Positions 2,398-46,432 of a stretch of 48,989 bases of DNA are shown in pieces; the first letter of the stretch is position 1; every line of letters begins with the position of its first letter. The DNA comes from an uncultured bacterium (GTDB lineage: Bacteria > Patescibacteriota > Patescibacteriia > Magasanikbacterales > GWA2-37-8): positions 1 to 48,989 of the forward strand of contig CALCZC010000013.1 of NCBI GenBank assembly GCA_937903605.1, written 5' to 3'. The notes under the pieces are model-generated. The model did not search any database, was not told the origin of the DNA, and saw only the letters and a list, made by a program, of their open reading frames with translations. A program made the translations under genes and the position numbers.

Positions 2398-2513
2398 AAC
2401 GAATTTTAGATTTTTGATTTTAGAATTAAGATTGTTTGGATATTATTAACTAAAAACAGATAAAAAGCAAGCCCGATGAGGTATTTAGTATATAGTATTA
2501 AGTATTAAGTATA

Positions 2514-2542
2514 TTGACAAACAACTTAAAATAGGGCATACT
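2514..2542 (+). promoter_or_regulatory. sigma70 promoter of tRNA-Ala
   Basis: TTGACA (2514-2519), 17-bp spacer, CATACT (2537-2542), 13 bp upstream of the tRNA. Confidence 0.75.
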
Positions 2543-2555
2543 AATAACACAAAAA

Positions 2556-2629
2556 GGGCCTGTAGCGTAGCTGGCTAGCGCGTCTCCATGGCATGGAGAA
2601 GGTCAGGGGTTCGAATCCCCTCAGGTCCA
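2556..2629 (+). tRNA. tRNA-Ala(GGC)
   Basis: Cloverleaf: GGGCCTG/CAGGTCC acceptor with G3:U70, anticodon arm TCTCC-ATGGCAT-GGAGA, T arm AGGGG-TTCGAAT-CCCCT. No encoded CCA. Confidence 0.96.
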
Positions 2630-2630
2630 C

Positions 2631-2657
2631 AAAAAATTCCCTAATGGGAATTTTTTT
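2631..2657. terminator. Bidirectional terminator
   Basis: AAAAAATTCCC-taat-GGGAATTTTTTT between the tRNA and a convergent gene. Confidence 0.8.
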
Positions 2658-2683
2658 AATATTCAGTATTCAGTATTCAATAT

Positions 2684-3886
2684 TTACTTTTCTAATTTGA
2701 ACCTCCAAATTTCTCTCCCGACTTTTTGGTCAGCGCGGGAATAGAGTAAATACGATGCTTTCTTTTCCCCCAAATATAACAATGGTTCGGCTTTGAAGCC
2801 GAGTTTCAAAAGCTCTGTTTCTAAGTTTATACGAAGCCAAGATGACCCTTGTTTGAAACAGGGAACGATAAAAATGACTGTGCCGTTTTTTTTCAAAACT
2901 TTTTTAAATTCGGAAAACGCGCGGACGTAGAGTCCTTTGAGTTCATCAGCTTGATTTTCCAAAATACCGCGTGTCTCATTTCCTTTGAGCGGTTTTCCCA
3001 AAAACGGTTCAGTAACGATTTTGTCTATGCTGTTTAACTGTATATTTTTAGTTAGGTTTTCTACAGGCAAGACGTGATATTGAATGTTAGATATTGGATA
3101 TTGATTGCTGCTTTTTAACCAATCAACGTTCTTTTGAGTGTCTTTTACAGCCCTTTCAGATAGATCAGAAGCAATGGCGTTTTTTACCCCCAAAAGGAGG
3201 GCTTCGGTGAGAATGGTACCAGAACCGCAGAATGGGTCGAGTAACGTGTCAGAAGGGGTAAATTTAGCCAAATTTAGCATCATTAGGGCTAGCTTTGGGG
3301 GCAACATACCACTCAAACTATCTCTACCTGGACGGCCAAAATCCCTAGAACCAAAATCTTCAAAAGGTTGAACAGCTACAGTTTTAGCCAAGGAAAAACC
3401 GGAGTTTTTCCAAATATAAATATATTCACCACCTTTTTTTATCAAATCATTTTTATCAACTGAAACCGAAGAAAGAATCTGTTCATTATTGAAAGCAAAA
3501 CGTACGGATAGTCCCGTTTGTTTTAATATTTTTTTACTTTCCAACCCGATTTTTTTCAAACGATATAAACTTTCATTATTTTTTGGCGAATAATCGCTTA
3601 AACCAAAATGTATTTTACCTGTCTGATTTTTTAAATCATTAACAATAGTTTCTATCATTTCTTTTTGATTTAAATTTTTTCCAAGTTCAACAGCGATTTT
3701 TATTGTTCCACCAAGCTTTTTTATGAGGTTTGTAGCCTCTATTTCTTTGTTGACGAAGAGAAACGGGGTAGCAAAATCGTTTTGTTCAATTTTTTCCAAA
3801 TTTAAAACCGCGCCGATTTCGGCGGCGGATAATTCGGGGTTATTTCCGAGTAAAAACCAATATTTTATAGAATTATTTTTTGACAT
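2684..3886 (-). CDS. Trm11/UPF0020-like RNA methyltransferase
   Basis: RDFGRP...SGMLPPKLA and LLDPFCGSGTIL SAM-binding motif; IVTEPFLG motif IV variant. Confidence 0.8.
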   Translation of the reverse strand: MSKNNSIKYWFLLGNNPELSAAEIGAVLNLEKIEQNDFATPFLFVNKEIEATNLIKKLGGTIKIAVELGKNLNQKEMIETIVNDLKNQTGKIHFGLSDYSPKNNESLYRLKKIGLESKKILKQTGLSVRFAFNNEQILSSVSVDKNDLIKKGGEYIYIWKNSGFSLAKTVAVQPFEDFGSRDFGRPGRDSLSGMLPPKLALMMLNLAKFTPSDTLLDPFCGSGTILTEALLLGVKNAIASDLSERAVKDTQKNVDWLKSSNQYPISNIQYHVLPVENLTKNIQLNSIDKIVTEPFLGKPLKGNETRGILENQADELKGLYVRAFSEFKKVLKKNGTVIFIVPCFKQGSSWLRINLETELLKLGFKAEPLLYLGEKKASYLLYSRADQKVGREIWRFKLEK

Positions 3887-35555: not shown

Positions 35556-36368
35556 TCAAAGAGGGCTTTTGATATTTTTGATACTGGGATTAGTCACGTG
35601 AGTATATATTTGCGTAGTGCGGATATTGGCGTGGCCCAAAAGCTCTTGTACATAACGTACATCAACGCCGTTTTCTAGTAGGTGAGTGGCGAAACTATGG
35701 CGTAAACTATGAAAGCTAGCGGGTTTTTTGATCCCTGATTTTTTCAATGCTTCTTCAAATATGGCTTGCGCGGTTCTGACGGTGAGTTTGCCACCACGAT
35801 TACTTTCAAAAAGATAATCCTCGCCGTTTCGTTCACCTGTCAAAAAATATAAATCATTTTTGATATTTTCTGGAATAACGGTTATCCTGTCTTTTTTGCC
35901 TTTGCCTTGCCTTACTTTCAAAATTAGTTCATCAAGTAAAACGTCTTTTATTTTCAAATCAACAACTTCACTCACTCGCAATCCCGCTCCATAAGCTAGA
36001 GATAATAGTAACAAATGTTTTTTATTGGTAACTTGAGATAAGATATTTTTGATTTCTTCTTTACTCAAAACTTCCGGCAAAGAATTGTTTCTTTTGGCAA
36101 ATTTTAGATCAACTCTTTGGTTATTTTTCAAAACATCATGATAGAAAAATTTTATAGCGTGTAAATACAAATTAATTGTTTGAGGAGAAAAATGCTTGTC
36201 TTGTTTTGAAAGTAAAAATTGTCTGATTTTGTCTATACTCAAAACCTCAAAATCAACTCTCAAAAAGATAAAATAATCTCTTAAACAGCCAAGATAGGAG
36301 TCAATGGTCCGAGGGCTATAATTACGTAGTCGTAACTCAATCCGAGTTTTGTCTAAAAATTCTTGCAT
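35556..36368 (-). CDS. IntI-like tyrosine recombinase (short form, no I2 insertion)
   Basis: LRLRNYSPRTIDSY N-domain; catalytic GLR, GKGKKDR, HSLRH, LLGH and TQIY; C-terminal SPL as in IntI; divergent from a cassette array. Confidence 0.92.
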   Translation of the reverse strand: MQEFLDKTRIELRLRNYSPRTIDSYLGCLRDYFIFLRVDFEVLSIDKIRQFLLSKQDKHFSPQTINLYLHAIKFFYHDVLKNNQRVDLKFAKRNNSLPEVLSKEEIKNILSQVTNKKHLLLLSLAYGAGLRVSEVVDLKIKDVLLDELILKVRQGKGKKDRITVIPENIKNDLYFLTGERNGEDYLFESNRGGKLTVRTAQAIFEEALKKSGIKKPASFHSLRHSFATHLLENGVDVRYVQELLGHANIRTTQIYTHVTNPSIKNIKSPL

Positions 36369-43279: not shown

Positions 43280-43541
43280 ATGGGGTAAGCAAATAAAAGG
43301 CAAAAATTCCCTCCCCTTAAACCCCTTCCTTTTTGCCTTTTATTTGAAGAGAATAAGGAGTTTTGGATTTTGGGCATTCACCCCTAACCCCTCTGCCCAA
43401 AATCCAAAACAAAAAAACAAATTTATGATTATTGAATAAAAAGCCTGTCAAAATGAAATTGAATGAAAAATATTTTTTGAACTCGCTCCTTTCAATCGCG
43501 CCCCGCTGCGCTCTCGCCTCCGCTACGCTACGGCTCGGGGC

Positions 43542-44777: not shown

Positions 44778-44924
44778 AAAATTTCGCTTCGCTCATTTTG
44801 CGCAATGTGCGGCGCATAACTGCGCCAGCTGTGCTTCGCGAAGCTTCGCACAACTGTCGCATATCCAAAATGGCGATCTGATGACAAAGTCATCATCTCA
44901 CCACTTCGGATTATGCGCCGCACA
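44772..44924 (+). mobile_element. 153-bp mini-cassette type A, copy 3
   Basis: Identical to copy 1. Confidence 0.9.
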
Positions 44925-44943
44925 TTATATAAAATTTTATACT

Positions 44944-45270
44944 ATGAAAAAATTGATTGTCGTTTTATCCAGCGGTGCATTGGTTCTACCAGAAATAGCT
45001 AATGCGTGTTATTTAACGCCCAATTTTAAGAATATTTTTTTAAGTGGCATTATTGGCCTGGTCTTATCCGCCATACTGATAACATTAATTCATAAAAAAA
45101 TAAGTAAGTTATTTGCAAAAAAATACAAATATTATTTGCTGTTTATACCAATTTACATAATAATGACCTTGATACTCATTATGATTATCCCGCTGGATAA
45201 AACGACAATTGAATGTGGGAATACTACAGGAAATGAGCAACTACCAGAAAATTTTGGCAAAACGCCATAA
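44944..45270 (+). CDS. Small membrane protein (cassette gene)
   Basis: 108 aa from ATG 44944, signal-like N-terminus and 2 TM helices. Confidence 0.7.
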   Translation: MKKLIVVLSSGALVLPEIANACYLTPNFKNIFLSGIIGLVLSAILITLIHKKISKLFAKKYKYYLLFIPIYIIMTLILIMIIPLDKTTIECGNTTGNEQLPENFGKTP

Positions 45271-45313
45271 ATACCGGAAATCAAAACGATATTTTTTCAT
45301 AGTATAAAACTTT

Positions 45314-45726
45314 ATATAACAGCGTATATACGGCTCACAAGCGAAATAAAATTATTTTTTCTTTTATGCGTGGAGATAACAACATTTTACGGTTAGACGG
45401 CGCAAATATGGATATTGATTTGACTTCCGGGGATAAAACTTCGTGGAAGCAAACAGAATGTCCATGGAATGAGGCCGAGGGTACAAATGAACACAAATGC
45501 GCCGTCAAAAATGTTTCTATTTGCAAATATTTCTGCGGAATTGAGTATTTAGACAATGTTTTGTGCTGTTATCCCAACAAAAATATGCTGGTGGATAACA
45601 AACAGAAAAAATAATTATATTTTTAATCGCTTGTTCGCCCAAATTCGGTTTCCGTTTTGTGTTGGCGCTCCGCGCAATTTTAACACAAAACTACAACCGA
45701 ACTTCGTATATACGCGTACATTGCGC
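45314..45726 (+). other. attC site 3, with a ~400-bp variable region containing an ORF
   Basis: TTATATAAC complements the cassette start G+TTATATAA (44925); GCGTATATACG (45322-45332) pairs with CGTATATACGC (45705-45715); then GTAC-A|TT. Confidence 0.75.
45366..45614 (+). CDS. Small Cys-rich hypothetical protein inside attC3
   Basis: 82-aa ATG ORF with 6 Cys; protein-like composition in otherwise structured DNA. Confidence 0.55.
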   Translation: MRGDNNILRLDGANMDIDLTSGDKTSWKQTECPWNEAEGTNEHKCAVKNVSICKYFCGIEYLDNVLCCYPNKNMLVDNKQKK

Positions 45727-45873
45727 AAAATTTCGCTTCGCTCATTTTGCGCAATGTGCGGCGCATAACTGCGCCAGCTGTGCTTCGCGAAGCTTCGCAC
45801 AACTGTCGCATATCCAAAATGGCGATCTGATGACAAAGTCATCATCTCACCACTTCGGATTATGCGCCGCACA
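45721..45873 (+). mobile_element. 153-bp mini-cassette type A, copy 4
   Basis: Identical to copy 1. Confidence 0.9.
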
Positions 45874-45934
45874 TTAAGTGAAATTGAATTTTGACAACGA
45901 TTGTAAAATACAAGTTCATTTATAAAATAACCTT

Positions 45935-46330
45935 ATGAAAATTTTTGTTCAATTTGTTTCAAGCTTAGTGGGCGGCATATTGTTAGGCATCATTGGACTT
46001 TTTATTGGCTCCATGATTGGCGGCAATTTCGGCTTCCCTGAATTCGGAGGTAACGTTGGATATCAAGCAGGAGGCCCTTTTTTCGGAATTATTGGAATTT
46101 CGCTAGGAAGCCTCCTTGGAATAATAGCTGCTAAAAGAATTCAAAAGGATCAGTTTATATATTCAATAACCTCAATAGCCGCCATTATAACAACTATTAT
46201 CGGCTTACTTCTTTTTGATTACAATATGCCGCCAGCTATTGGCTTTAGTATACCTTTGATGCCAGCAATAGTATTAATAATCGTCACAAATTGGCAAAAA
46301 TTTTTTAAAATTAAACTAAATAAAACTTAG
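45935..46330 (+). CDS. Gly-rich multi-TM membrane protein (cassette gene)
   Basis: 131 aa, about 4 TM helices with GxxxG repeats. Confidence 0.7.
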   Translation: MKIFVQFVSSLVGGILLGIIGLFIGSMIGGNFGFPEFGGNVGYQAGGPFFGIIGISLGSLLGIIAAKRIQKDQFIYSITSIAAIITTIIGLLLFDYNMPPAIGFSIPLMPAIVLIIVTNWQKFFKIKLNKT

Positions 46331-46345
46331 CCAAAATTCAACATC

Positions 46346-46432
46346 ACTTAACACGGGATACACGGTAAAGTCTTTCGCGGAAAGACTTTACTCAAATTGC
46401 TACGCAACTTCGCTTATCCCGGAACGTTATCT
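46346..46432 (+). other. attC site 4
   Basis: CACTTAAC complements the cassette start G+TTAAGTG (45874); CGGGATA...TATCCCG arms; internal hairpin GTAAAGTCTTTC/GAAAGACTTTAC; GAAC-G|TT. Confidence 0.85.

What the first reader, a model, noticed from the sequence alone, without database searches (positions are those of the whole stretch)
45314..45726. A protein-coding gene nested inside an attC site
Seen: the outer attC3 arms (GCGTATATACG 45322-45332 / CGTATATACGC 45705-45715) are ~370 bp apart. Inside, ACAAGCGA (45337-45344) pairs with TCGCTTGT (45627-45634) and brackets the 82-aa Cys-rich ORF 45366-45614. This matches the short GGCTCGGCTCGCC hairpin position in attC1. Inference: the loop of a variable-region hairpin has captured a gene, so the recombination site itself carries cargo. 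attC sites are normally about 60-140 bp and non-coding.
Basis: partly seen in the sequence, partly recalled or inferred. Interest (0 to 1): 0.75.

Follow-up and report, generated by a model that had tools for sequence, protein, structure and literature searches.

The report
Gene carried inside a recombination-site hairpin
In an integron-like gene-cassette array of an uncultured Patescibacteria bacterium, a complete, conserved 82-amino-acid gene sits inside a hairpin loop of the recombination site itself. Related arrays show the same thing repeatedly, so these hairpin loops appear to act as extra cargo slots.

Summary

- **The site:** 45315-45720 is a real member of the array's attC-like site family. 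Its 11-nt arms align in register with 15 other sites. The arm stem covaries (98.7% paired, 8 of 11 pairs compensatory).
- **The hairpin:** the first of the two variable hairpins has an 8 + 12 bp stem. It closes around a complete gene at 45366-45614.
- **The gene:** it belongs to a family of more than 630 small Cys4-His proteins, 60-89% identical, mostly found outside cassettes.
- **Folding:** both strands fold in silico into this architecture (z = -5.9 and -7.15).
- **No hidden core:** no att core flanks the ORF.
- **One unit:** in assemblies from at least 8 wastewater or sludge samples, cassette 3 (44925-45720) is one unit with varying right-hand neighbours.
- **Recurrence:** the identical scaffold elsewhere carries three other ORFs in the same slot, and once also hicAB in the second hairpin. 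Three further sites of the family (460-628 nt) hold other small ORFs. The 15 ORF-free sites measure 58-191 nt.

How cargo enters or is exchanged is unknown. I found no published description. I class it as a new variant of integron attC architecture, in a system whose recombinase lacks the IntI-specific domain.

The parts
44925..44952 (+). Start of cassette 3. It begins with TT just after the crossover, and this is the left arm of the 28-bp repeat that extends the R box. It includes the ATG of the first gene.
   Evidence: Pairs 27/28 with 45292-45319. Contigs of several runs break or switch neighbour at 44924|44925.
44944..45270 (+). 108-aa membrane-protein gene in the ordinary cassette position, between R' and R''.
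   Evidence: ORF list. In diverged alleles from runs X9 and X15, 7 of the first 9 substitutions fall on third codon positions.
45292..45320 (+). Right arm of the 28-bp repeat, ending in the R'' box TATAAC (AAC at 45318-45320).
   Evidence: AAC is invariant in 16 of 16 aligned sites.
45322..45332 (+). L'' arm, GCGTATATACG.
   Evidence: In register with the family. The stem is 98.7% paired, with 8 of 11 pairs compensatory.
45337..45361 (+). Left side of the hairpin-1 stem: ACAAGCGA (45337-45344) and AATTATTTTTTC (45350-45361).
   Evidence: Paired in the MFE and centroid folds of both strands. Identical in L011 copies that carry other cargo.
45366..45614 (+). Nested gene: an 82-aa Cys4-His mini-protein of unknown function.
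   Evidence: More than 630 homologues at 60-89% identity. C32, C45, C53, C67 and H43 are invariant. pN/pS is 0.32 against the nested L011 copy.
45605..45634 (+). Right side of the hairpin-1 stem: GAAAAAATAATT (45605-45616, covering the stop codon) and TCGCTTGT (45627-45634).
45638..45645 (+). Conserved single-stranded linker CCCAAATT between hairpins 1 and 2.
   Evidence: A CC(A/C)(A/T)ATT motif is present at this position in most sites of the family.
45644..45701 (+). Hairpin 2: TTCGGTT / AACCGAA and GTTTTGTGTT / AACACAAAAC.
   Evidence: Folds. Nearly identical in L011 at 945-1019. In the L011 copy at 2453-3281 it is replaced by a hicAB-bearing hairpin.
45705..45715 (+). L' arm, CGTATATACGC.
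45716..45722 (+). Spacer GTAC, the last base of the cassette (A at 45720; G in run X9 and in L011), and the TT that begins the next unit.
   Evidence: Three different sequences follow this point in different samples: the 153-bp mini-cassette type A (mini-A; window), a related mini-cassette type B (mini-B; X9) and another cassette (X3).

Best explanation
The stretch 45315-45720 is one functional recombination site, attC-like, of a Patescibacterial integron-like array.

Sites of this family share a fixed core:
- TAAC-A-L''(11 nt) on the left.
- L'(11 nt)-4 nt-(G/A)|TT on the right.
- A branched variable part between them: hairpin 1, a CCCAAATT linker and hairpin 2.

Here the loop of hairpin 1 is a whole gene. 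It is closed off by an 8 + 12 bp gene-hugging inverted repeat. On single-stranded DNA this repeat zips up and brings the core arms into the same geometry as in the 58-191-nt relatives.

Cassette 3 (44925-45720) is therefore a two-gene cassette. One gene sits in the usual place. The other travels inside the site.

Comparison shows that the hairpin loops of this family are general cargo slots, each cargo bracketed by its own inverted repeat.

Shown:
- The anatomy and the register of the arms.
- Covariation of the arm stem.
- The in-silico fold.
- That the gene is real.
- That the cassette is one unit.
- That cassette boundaries are real recombination junctions.
- That cargo differs between identical scaffolds.

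Inferred:
- Recombination acts on the folded single strand and is done by the neighbouring 270-aa recombinase.
- The zipper is what keeps the long site active.
- How cargo gets in remains unknown.
For: 1. **Register and covariation.** Sixteen sites aligned without gaps. The AAC/GTT and L stems are 98.7% paired, 8 of 11 L pairs carry compensatory changes, 0 of 500 shuffles reach the score, and slid controls are 17-49% paired.
2. **Fold.** The MFE and centroid structures of both strands contain L''/L', the hairpin-1 stem closing the ORF, and hairpin 2. z = -5.9 (bottom strand) and -7.15 (top strand).
3. **Boundaries are real junctions.** Cassette 4 is absent exactly at 45873|46427 in run X2, and adjacency of the 153-bp mini-cassette type A (mini-A) to the related type B (mini-B) appears in five more runs. 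The 7-kb cassette start TTATACGC follows a different site's G in L018.
4. **One unit.**
   - Single contigs span from the start of cassette 3, or from within its first gene, across ORF82 to the 3' arm of the site (45704 or beyond) in X1, X2, X3 and X6.
   - An X4 contig covers 45186-45714, and an X12 contig spans from the first gene through ORF82 to 45626.
   - Three other assemblies carry it with 0 of 796 mismatches.
   - The right-hand neighbour is mini-A, mini-B or another cassette.
5. **Same scaffold, other cargo.**
   - L011 586-1038 holds a 97-aa membrane ORF.
   - Run X9 holds 220 other letters between 45352 and 45614. From the 30 letters seen at each end I infer an ORF of about 65 aa, with its own 9-bp inverted repeat.
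   - Runs X22 and X23 show a fourth cargo.
   - L011 2453-3281 holds ORF82 in hairpin 1, plus HicA (PF07927, 50.6 bits) and its partner in hairpin 2.
6. **Other scaffolds with nested ORFs.** L011 1542-2106 (565 nt), L107 (628 nt) and L109 (460 nt).
7. **Scaffold versus gene.** The 51-nt left scaffold is 0 of 51 different between the window and L011, while the gene differs at 30 of 246 positions (pS 0.28).
Against: - No experiment shows that this system recombines folded single strands, or that a 403-nt site is active.
- The window copy has A instead of G at the crossover base (45720), which could weaken it.
- I found no empty version of this scaffold, so insertion into a pre-existing site is inferred, not seen.
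- The population evidence comes from assembled contigs (Logan), not raw reads. The fourth cargo comes from metatranscriptome assemblies that may contain DNA.
- The recombinase lacks the IntI-specific domain and the arms lack extrahelical bases, so analogy with classical attC mechanics may not hold.
Confidence: 0.75

Rival explanations
1. Historical fusion of two ordinary cassettes. The 108-aa gene's site would have lost its 3' half and the ORF82 cassette's site its 5' half, leaving arms that happen to pair. The present site would then be a scar, not a designed slot.
For: ORF82 relatives do occur as ordinary cassettes, with the ORF followed by its site, in L018 and L040. The stretch TTATTTTTTC...GAAAAAATAA around ORF82 superficially resembles a cassette start (TTAT...) and an R''-like end (...ATAA).
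Against: - The arms are perfectly complementary over 11 bp and in exact family register.
- No half-site remnants lie between the two genes.
- The same scaffold occurs with an almost empty ordinary compartment (L011 481-585) and with different cargo in the same slot.
- The pattern recurs in three unrelated scaffolds. Independent symmetric double losses are unlikely.
Confidence: 0.1
2. ORF82 with its inverted repeats is an independent small mobile element that inserted into the site. Comparable cases would be IS1111-attC elements, group IIC-attC introns or a MITE.
For: Elements that target attC sites are known (PMC3001079, PMC8876359). The cargo is bounded by inverted repeats and is replaced as a unit in X9 and X22.
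Against: - There is no transposase, reverse transcriptase or any Pfam domain.
- The repeats are specific to each cargo and partly made of the gene's own last codons.
- There is no target duplication.
- Most of the 80 genome loci holding homologues are ordinary chromosomal contexts without such ends.
- The gene is sense-oriented and internal to hairpin 1, not near the 5' end on the antisense strand.
Confidence: 0.07
3. The nested repeats act only at the RNA level, for example in mRNA stability or translational control of the small gene. The long arms would be irrelevant to DNA recombination, which would need only the short R-box sequences.
For: The repeats cover the region just upstream of the ATG and the stop codon. 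Transcripts or assemblies from metatranscriptomes cover the scaffold.
Against: - L''/L' covariation is shared with 58-191-nt ORF-free sites.
- The junction geometry is fixed relative to L', which points to a DNA-site role.
- RNA effects could coexist with that role.
Confidence: 0.05

Closest known systems
Long attC sites of sedentary chromosomal integrons (e.g. Vibrio cholerae repeats) with branched variable terminal structures
   Same: - AAC and GTT triplets lie at the crossover.
- R and L arms are complementary while their sequence varies.
- The variable part can be a branched structure.
- Sites of one type are shared by cassettes holding unrelated genes (PMC5027507, PMC5371416).
   Different: - Known sites are 57-141 bp and non-coding. 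This one is about 403 nt and contains a whole gene, and relatives reach 829 nt with three genes.
- The arms here lack extrahelical bases.
- The spacer is an asymmetric 1/4-nt bulge.
- The neighbouring recombinase lacks the IntI-specific insertion.
IS1111-attC insertion sequences and group IIC-attC introns
   Same: Both put protein-coding DNA inside an attC site (PMC3001079, PMC8876359).
   Different: Those are autonomous elements. They encode a transposase or a reverse transcriptase, insert near the 5' end on the antisense strand, and interrupt the site. Here the cargo is ordinary small genes in sense orientation, placed in a hairpin loop so that the core stays intact.
Short ORFs within attC sites that aid translational re-initiation
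   Same: Coding sequence lies inside the site (PMC8876359).
   Different: Those are peptides of a few codons that overlap the stem-loop. Here the ORF is a conserved, independently evolving 82-aa protein gene.
Multi-gene or fused integron cassettes
   Same: More than one gene moves as one cassette.
   Different: In known cases all genes lie between R' and R''. Here the second gene, and in L011 the second to fourth, lies between L'' and L'.

Membership tests
Integron attC recombination site | Conserved AAC (R'') and GTT (R') triplets, with the crossover at G|TT coinciding with the cassette boundary | tested here: met
   AAC is present in 16 of 16 aligned sites and GTT in 15 of 16. The window site has ATT, but the X9 and L011 alleles have GTT. 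Boundaries at N|TT are confirmed by the precise absence of cassette 4 and by changed neighbours.
Integron attC recombination site | R''-L'' pairs with L'-R' as a hairpin whose structure, not sequence, is conserved | tested here: met
   98.7% of cells are paired, 8 of 11 L pairs are compensatory, and 0 of 500 shuffles do as well. The pairs are present in the folds.
Integron attC recombination site | Extrahelical bases in the stem next to L'' | tested here: not met
   The L stem of this site is 11 perfect pairs. Only occasional relatives (L018) have a single bulged base.
Integron attC recombination site | Unpaired central spacer of about 5-6 nt on each arm between the R and L boxes | tested here: inconclusive
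   There is an asymmetric bulge instead: 1 nt (A) on the 5' arm against 4 nt (GTAC, GAAC or ATAC) on the 3' arm.
Integron attC recombination site | Length 57-141 bp with a non-coding variable terminal structure | tested here: not met
   The site is 403 nt from AAC to the crossover and holds an 82-aa gene. The literature range is from PMC5027507 and PMC5371416.
Integron attC recombination site | Part of an array next to an integron integrase that carries the IntI-specific additional domain | tested here: not met
   The array and a divergent recombinase are present. However, TIGR02249 scores 208 bits against a cut-off of 265 and matches in two pieces that skip the insertion. The best model is NF040815, XerA-like/integron integrase.
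Integron attC recombination site | Recombined as folded bottom-strand single-stranded DNA | not testable with these tools
   The only hints are in-silico folds and a G·T wobble that favours the bottom strand.
[quoted passage not shown] | Encodes a DEDD transposase or a reverse transcriptase/maturase | tested here: not met
   No Pfam or NCBIfam hit at E <= 10 for the 82-aa product.
Fused cassettes | Remnant of an internal site or core between the fused genes | tested here: not met
   Only R''-L'' and the left hairpin-1 arm lie between the two genes. No L'/R'-type sequence is present.
Cys4-His mini-protein family of CPR (candidate phyla radiation = Patescibacteria), DPANN archaea, Chloroflexota and Clostridia (uncharacterised) | A protein of about 75-90 aa with the motif LDGANMDIDL...CPWN...HKCAVKN.SIC.YFCG...CCYP | tested here: met
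   60-89% identity to more than 630 proteins. The invariant Cys and His residues are present.

The most novel reading that the evidence does not exclude
The hairpin loops of these recombination sites may be dedicated, separately exchangeable cargo compartments, in effect cassettes within the site.

- A conserved scaffold of arms, stems and linker would be reused.
- Genes would be swapped in and out of its loops by a route distinct from cassette-level recombination.
- Gene-hugging inverted repeats would be generated de novo, for example by template switching at the hairpin.

If so, this could be a visible intermediate of how genes first become joined to recombination sites. The origin of integron cassettes is a long-standing open question.
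Probability: 0.3. Interest if true: 0.85.

Novelty: new variant of a known kind. Interest (0 to 1): 0.68.

Why it matters
Integron recombination sites are treated as short, non-coding structural elements.

This finding shows three things:
- A site can hold whole genes in its variable hairpins and still behave as one mobile unit, provided each gene is zipped off by an inverted repeat.
- One cassette can carry up to three separate cargo compartments.
- An identical site scaffold occurs with different genes inside.

The third point gives a concrete, testable handle on how genes and recombination sites become associated. It also adds to the evidence that Patescibacteria have a widespread, non-canonical integron-like system.

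Tried and rejected
- **Search for an empty scaffold or more copies.** An exact 19-mer, TCGCTTGTTCGCCCAAATT, gave 5 hits in metagenome contigs, all chance matches inside unrelated coding sequences. It gave none in viral contigs.
- **Rfam.** Only tRNAs and sub-threshold noise over the array.
- **Function of ORF82.** No Pfam, NCBIfam or PDB sequence match. The AlphaFold2 model on a 47-sequence alignment was poor (pLDDT 54.9), so I made no fold search.
- **An overlooked core.** The pattern scan found only one junction-like match, inside the coding sequence at 45380, plus the true end at 45716.
- **A canonical crossover at the hairpin-1 boundary.** I considered A|TT at 45351|45352 and G|TT at 45632|45633. 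I rejected this because the flanks do not fit the NNAC(G/A)|TT consensus, the putative inner site has no arms, and the X9 cargo diverges after a single T.
- **CACA|TT upstream of the L011 copy.** I first read it as a crossover. It is in fact part of that cassette's extended R'' arm, which pairs 20/21 with the cassette start.

Full report
**Context**

- The window's right third is an integron-like array.
- A 270-aa tyrosine recombinase (35556-36368, minus strand) matches NF040815, "XerA/integron integrase", at 225 bits.
- It matches the integron-integrase model TIGR02249 only in two pieces, below the cut-off, skipping the IntI-specific insertion.
- Downstream lie gene cassettes that alternate with four near-identical repeats of about 153 bp, here called mini-cassettes type A (mini-A).
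- Each gene cassette ends in a structured site: ...TAAC-A-[11-nt arm]-hairpin 1-CCCA(A/T)ATT-hairpin 2-CTT-[complementary arm]-4 nt-(G/A)|TT.
- Earlier first-stage notes on the same window describe this layout. I checked the parts that I use.

**Observation**

- Every coordinate in the finding is right, and each of the four repeat halves is unique in the window.
- The hairpin around the ORF is stronger than reported. Besides ACAAGCGA/TCGCTTGT there is a perfect 12-bp repeat, AATTATTTTTTC (45350-45361) / GAAAAAATAATT (45605-45616). It ends 4 nt before the ATG and includes the stop codon.

**Is it a real site?**

- I extracted the arms of 21 sites from five arrays: the window, L011/L100, L040, L091, L018, L107 and L109.
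- Sixteen of them align without gaps, in one register.
- On that alignment the AAC/GTT and arm stems are 98.7% paired, and 8 of 11 arm pairs show compensatory changes.
- No shuffle of 500 reaches the covariation score, and sliding the partner by 1-3 columns drops pairing to 17-49%.
- The window's long site is an ordinary member. Its one deviation is A instead of G at the last cassette base (45720). The allele in run X9 and the two L011 copies have G.
- Both strands of 45310-45726 fold as DNA into exactly the proposed architecture, in the MFE and the centroid structures. z = -5.9 (bottom strand) and -7.15 (top strand).
- Short relatives fold the same way, with a G·T wobble that favours the bottom strand.

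**Are the boundaries real recombination junctions?**

- In Logan contigs of public wastewater and sludge runs, cassette 4 is missing exactly between 45873 and 46427 in X2. The same adjacency of mini-A to a related mini-cassette type B (mini-B) appears in X3, X4, X6, X7 and X15.
- In L018 the start of the window's 7-kb cassette (TTATACGC...) follows the G of a different site.
- Single contigs span from the start of cassette 3 (44925-45720), or from within its first gene, across ORF82 to the 3' arm of the site in X1, X2, X3 and X6. An X4 contig covers 45186-45714, and an X12 contig spans from the first gene through ORF82 to 45626. The cassette is 796/796 identical in three other assemblies.
- Its right-hand neighbour varies: mini-A here, mini-B in X9, and another cassette in X3.
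- The long site has therefore taken part in rearrangements, or moved, as one piece. Nothing separates ORF82 from the 108-aa gene.
- A scan for core-like patterns inside the site found only a chance match within the coding sequence.

**The gene**

- ORF82 has more than 630 homologues at 60-89% identity. They occur in the candidate phyla radiation (CPR, i.e. Patescibacteria), DPANN archaea, Chloroflexota and Clostridia.
- C32, C45, C53, C67 and H43 are invariant.
- Most homologues sit in ordinary, unrelated neighbourhoods.
- Two (L018, L040) are ordinary cassettes, with the ORF followed by the site.
- It has no Pfam, NCBIfam or PDB match, and the structure model was poor. Its function is unknown, probably metal binding.
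- Against the nested copy in L011, pN/pS is 0.32.

**Comparative evidence**

- L011, a cassette array in another assembly, holds the identical scaffold twice.
  - At 586-1038 it has the same arms, the same hairpin-1 stem and the same hairpin 2, but a 97-aa membrane-protein ORF in the slot.
  - At 2453-3281 it has an ORF82 orthologue in hairpin 1. Hairpin 2 is replaced by a 13-bp-stemmed hairpin that holds HicA (PF07927) and its partner.
- Run X9 carries both the ORF82 form and a form with 220 other letters between 45352 and 45614. Their ends show an ATG-initiated ORF, which I infer to be about 65 aa, flanked by its own 9-bp repeat ATTAAAATC/GATTTTAAT.
- Metatranscriptome assemblies X22 and X23 show a fourth cargo between 45360 and 45606.
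- Unrelated scaffolds also hold nested ORFs bracketed by 20-50-bp repeats:
  - L011 1542-2106, 565 nt, with a 67-aa zinc-ribbon ORF.
  - L107, 628 nt, with a 78-aa membrane ORF on the opposite strand.
  - L109, 460 nt, with a 57-aa zinc-ribbon ORF.
- Overall, 15 sites measure 58-191 nt and 6 measure 403-829 nt with ORFs inside.
- The 51-nt left scaffold is identical between the window and L011, while the gene differs at 12% of positions (pS 0.28). Scaffold and cargo therefore have different histories.

**Interpretation**

- The gene is carried in the variable hairpin of a bona fide site.
- The cargo-hugging repeat plausibly keeps the arms in register on single-stranded DNA.
- In the excised circular form, the cassette would fold as a rod (extended R stem plus L stem) with cargo loops at both ends. 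"Inside" and "outside" the site are then nearly symmetric positions.
- How genes enter or are exchanged in the slot is unknown. There is no conserved inner core, and the bracketing repeats partly consist of the genes' own terminal codons. This suggests that they are made after capture, for example by template switching. That is speculation.

**Comparison with known systems**

- Classical attC sites are 57-141 bp. Their variable terminal structure ranges from 3 nt to branched structures (PMC5027507, PMC5371416).
- Coding DNA inside them is known only in two forms: very short ORFs, and insertions of IS1111-attC elements or group IIC-attC introns (PMC8876359, PMC3001079).
- I found no description of ordinary genes housed in attC hairpins, nor of this Patescibacterial system.

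**Limits**

- No biochemical evidence.
- The population data are assemblies, not raw reads.
- No empty scaffold was found.

Noticed in passing
45720: The last base of cassette 3 is A (GTACA|TT) in the window and in three other assemblies. The same site has G in run X9 and in both L011 copies. This could weaken cleavage at this junction.
   Followed up: partly
45874-46426: Cassette 4 is precisely absent in run X2, and five other runs show the 153-bp mini-cassette type A (mini-A) joined directly to the related type B (mini-B). After mini-A, some runs carry another cassette that begins TTGTCGGAAAAATAGCTCC. The array is polymorphic in nature.
   Followed up: partly
35556-36368: The 270-aa recombinase has more than 5,550 homologues at E <= 1e-40, and the best 120 are 62-75% identical. 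In three relatives it sits divergently next to accessory-gene arrays holding restriction-modification (RM) genes, Fic, peptidases and others. It may double as the lineage's Xer-type recombinase, which would make the arrays Xer-exploiting elements.
   Followed up: partly
45315-45365 versus L011:2450-2500: The left scaffold is 0 of 51 different, while the enclosed gene is 12% different (pS 0.28). This suggests homogenisation or exchange of scaffold and cargo.
   Followed up: partly
45346-45351: TAAAAT, which resembles a -10 promoter element, lies in the left hairpin-1 arm 15 nt upstream of the ATG. The same 5' leader (AAATAAAATTATTTTTTTCTTTT) accompanies diverged nested copies in L091 and L093. 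The scaffold might supply a promoter.
   Followed up: no
43376-43395 and L011:283-301: A shared motif, ATTCACCCCTAACCCCTCT, lies upstream of a site at the end of large cassettes in both arrays. It also appears in loose ends of runs X5 and X8.
   Followed up: no
L stems of all 16 aligned sites: The middle of the arm is conserved (TA invariant, mostly GTAT/ATAC), and the arms are flanked by invariant GG...TC. There are no extrahelical bases, which fits a recombinase without the IntI I2 insertion.
   Followed up: partly
44944-45270: Diverged alleles of the 108-aa gene in runs X9 and X15 differ mostly at third codon positions (7 of the first 9 sites). The gene is therefore under purifying selection.
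   Followed up: partly
L011:2788-2800 and L011:3245-3257: The hicAB cargo in hairpin 2 is bracketed by TGACTTATTTTTT / AAAAAATAAGTCA. This contains the same TTATTTTTT / AAAAAATAA pair that brackets three cargos in hairpin 1. It could be coincidence (Lys-Lys-stop in an AT-rich genome) or a shared end sequence.
   Followed up: no
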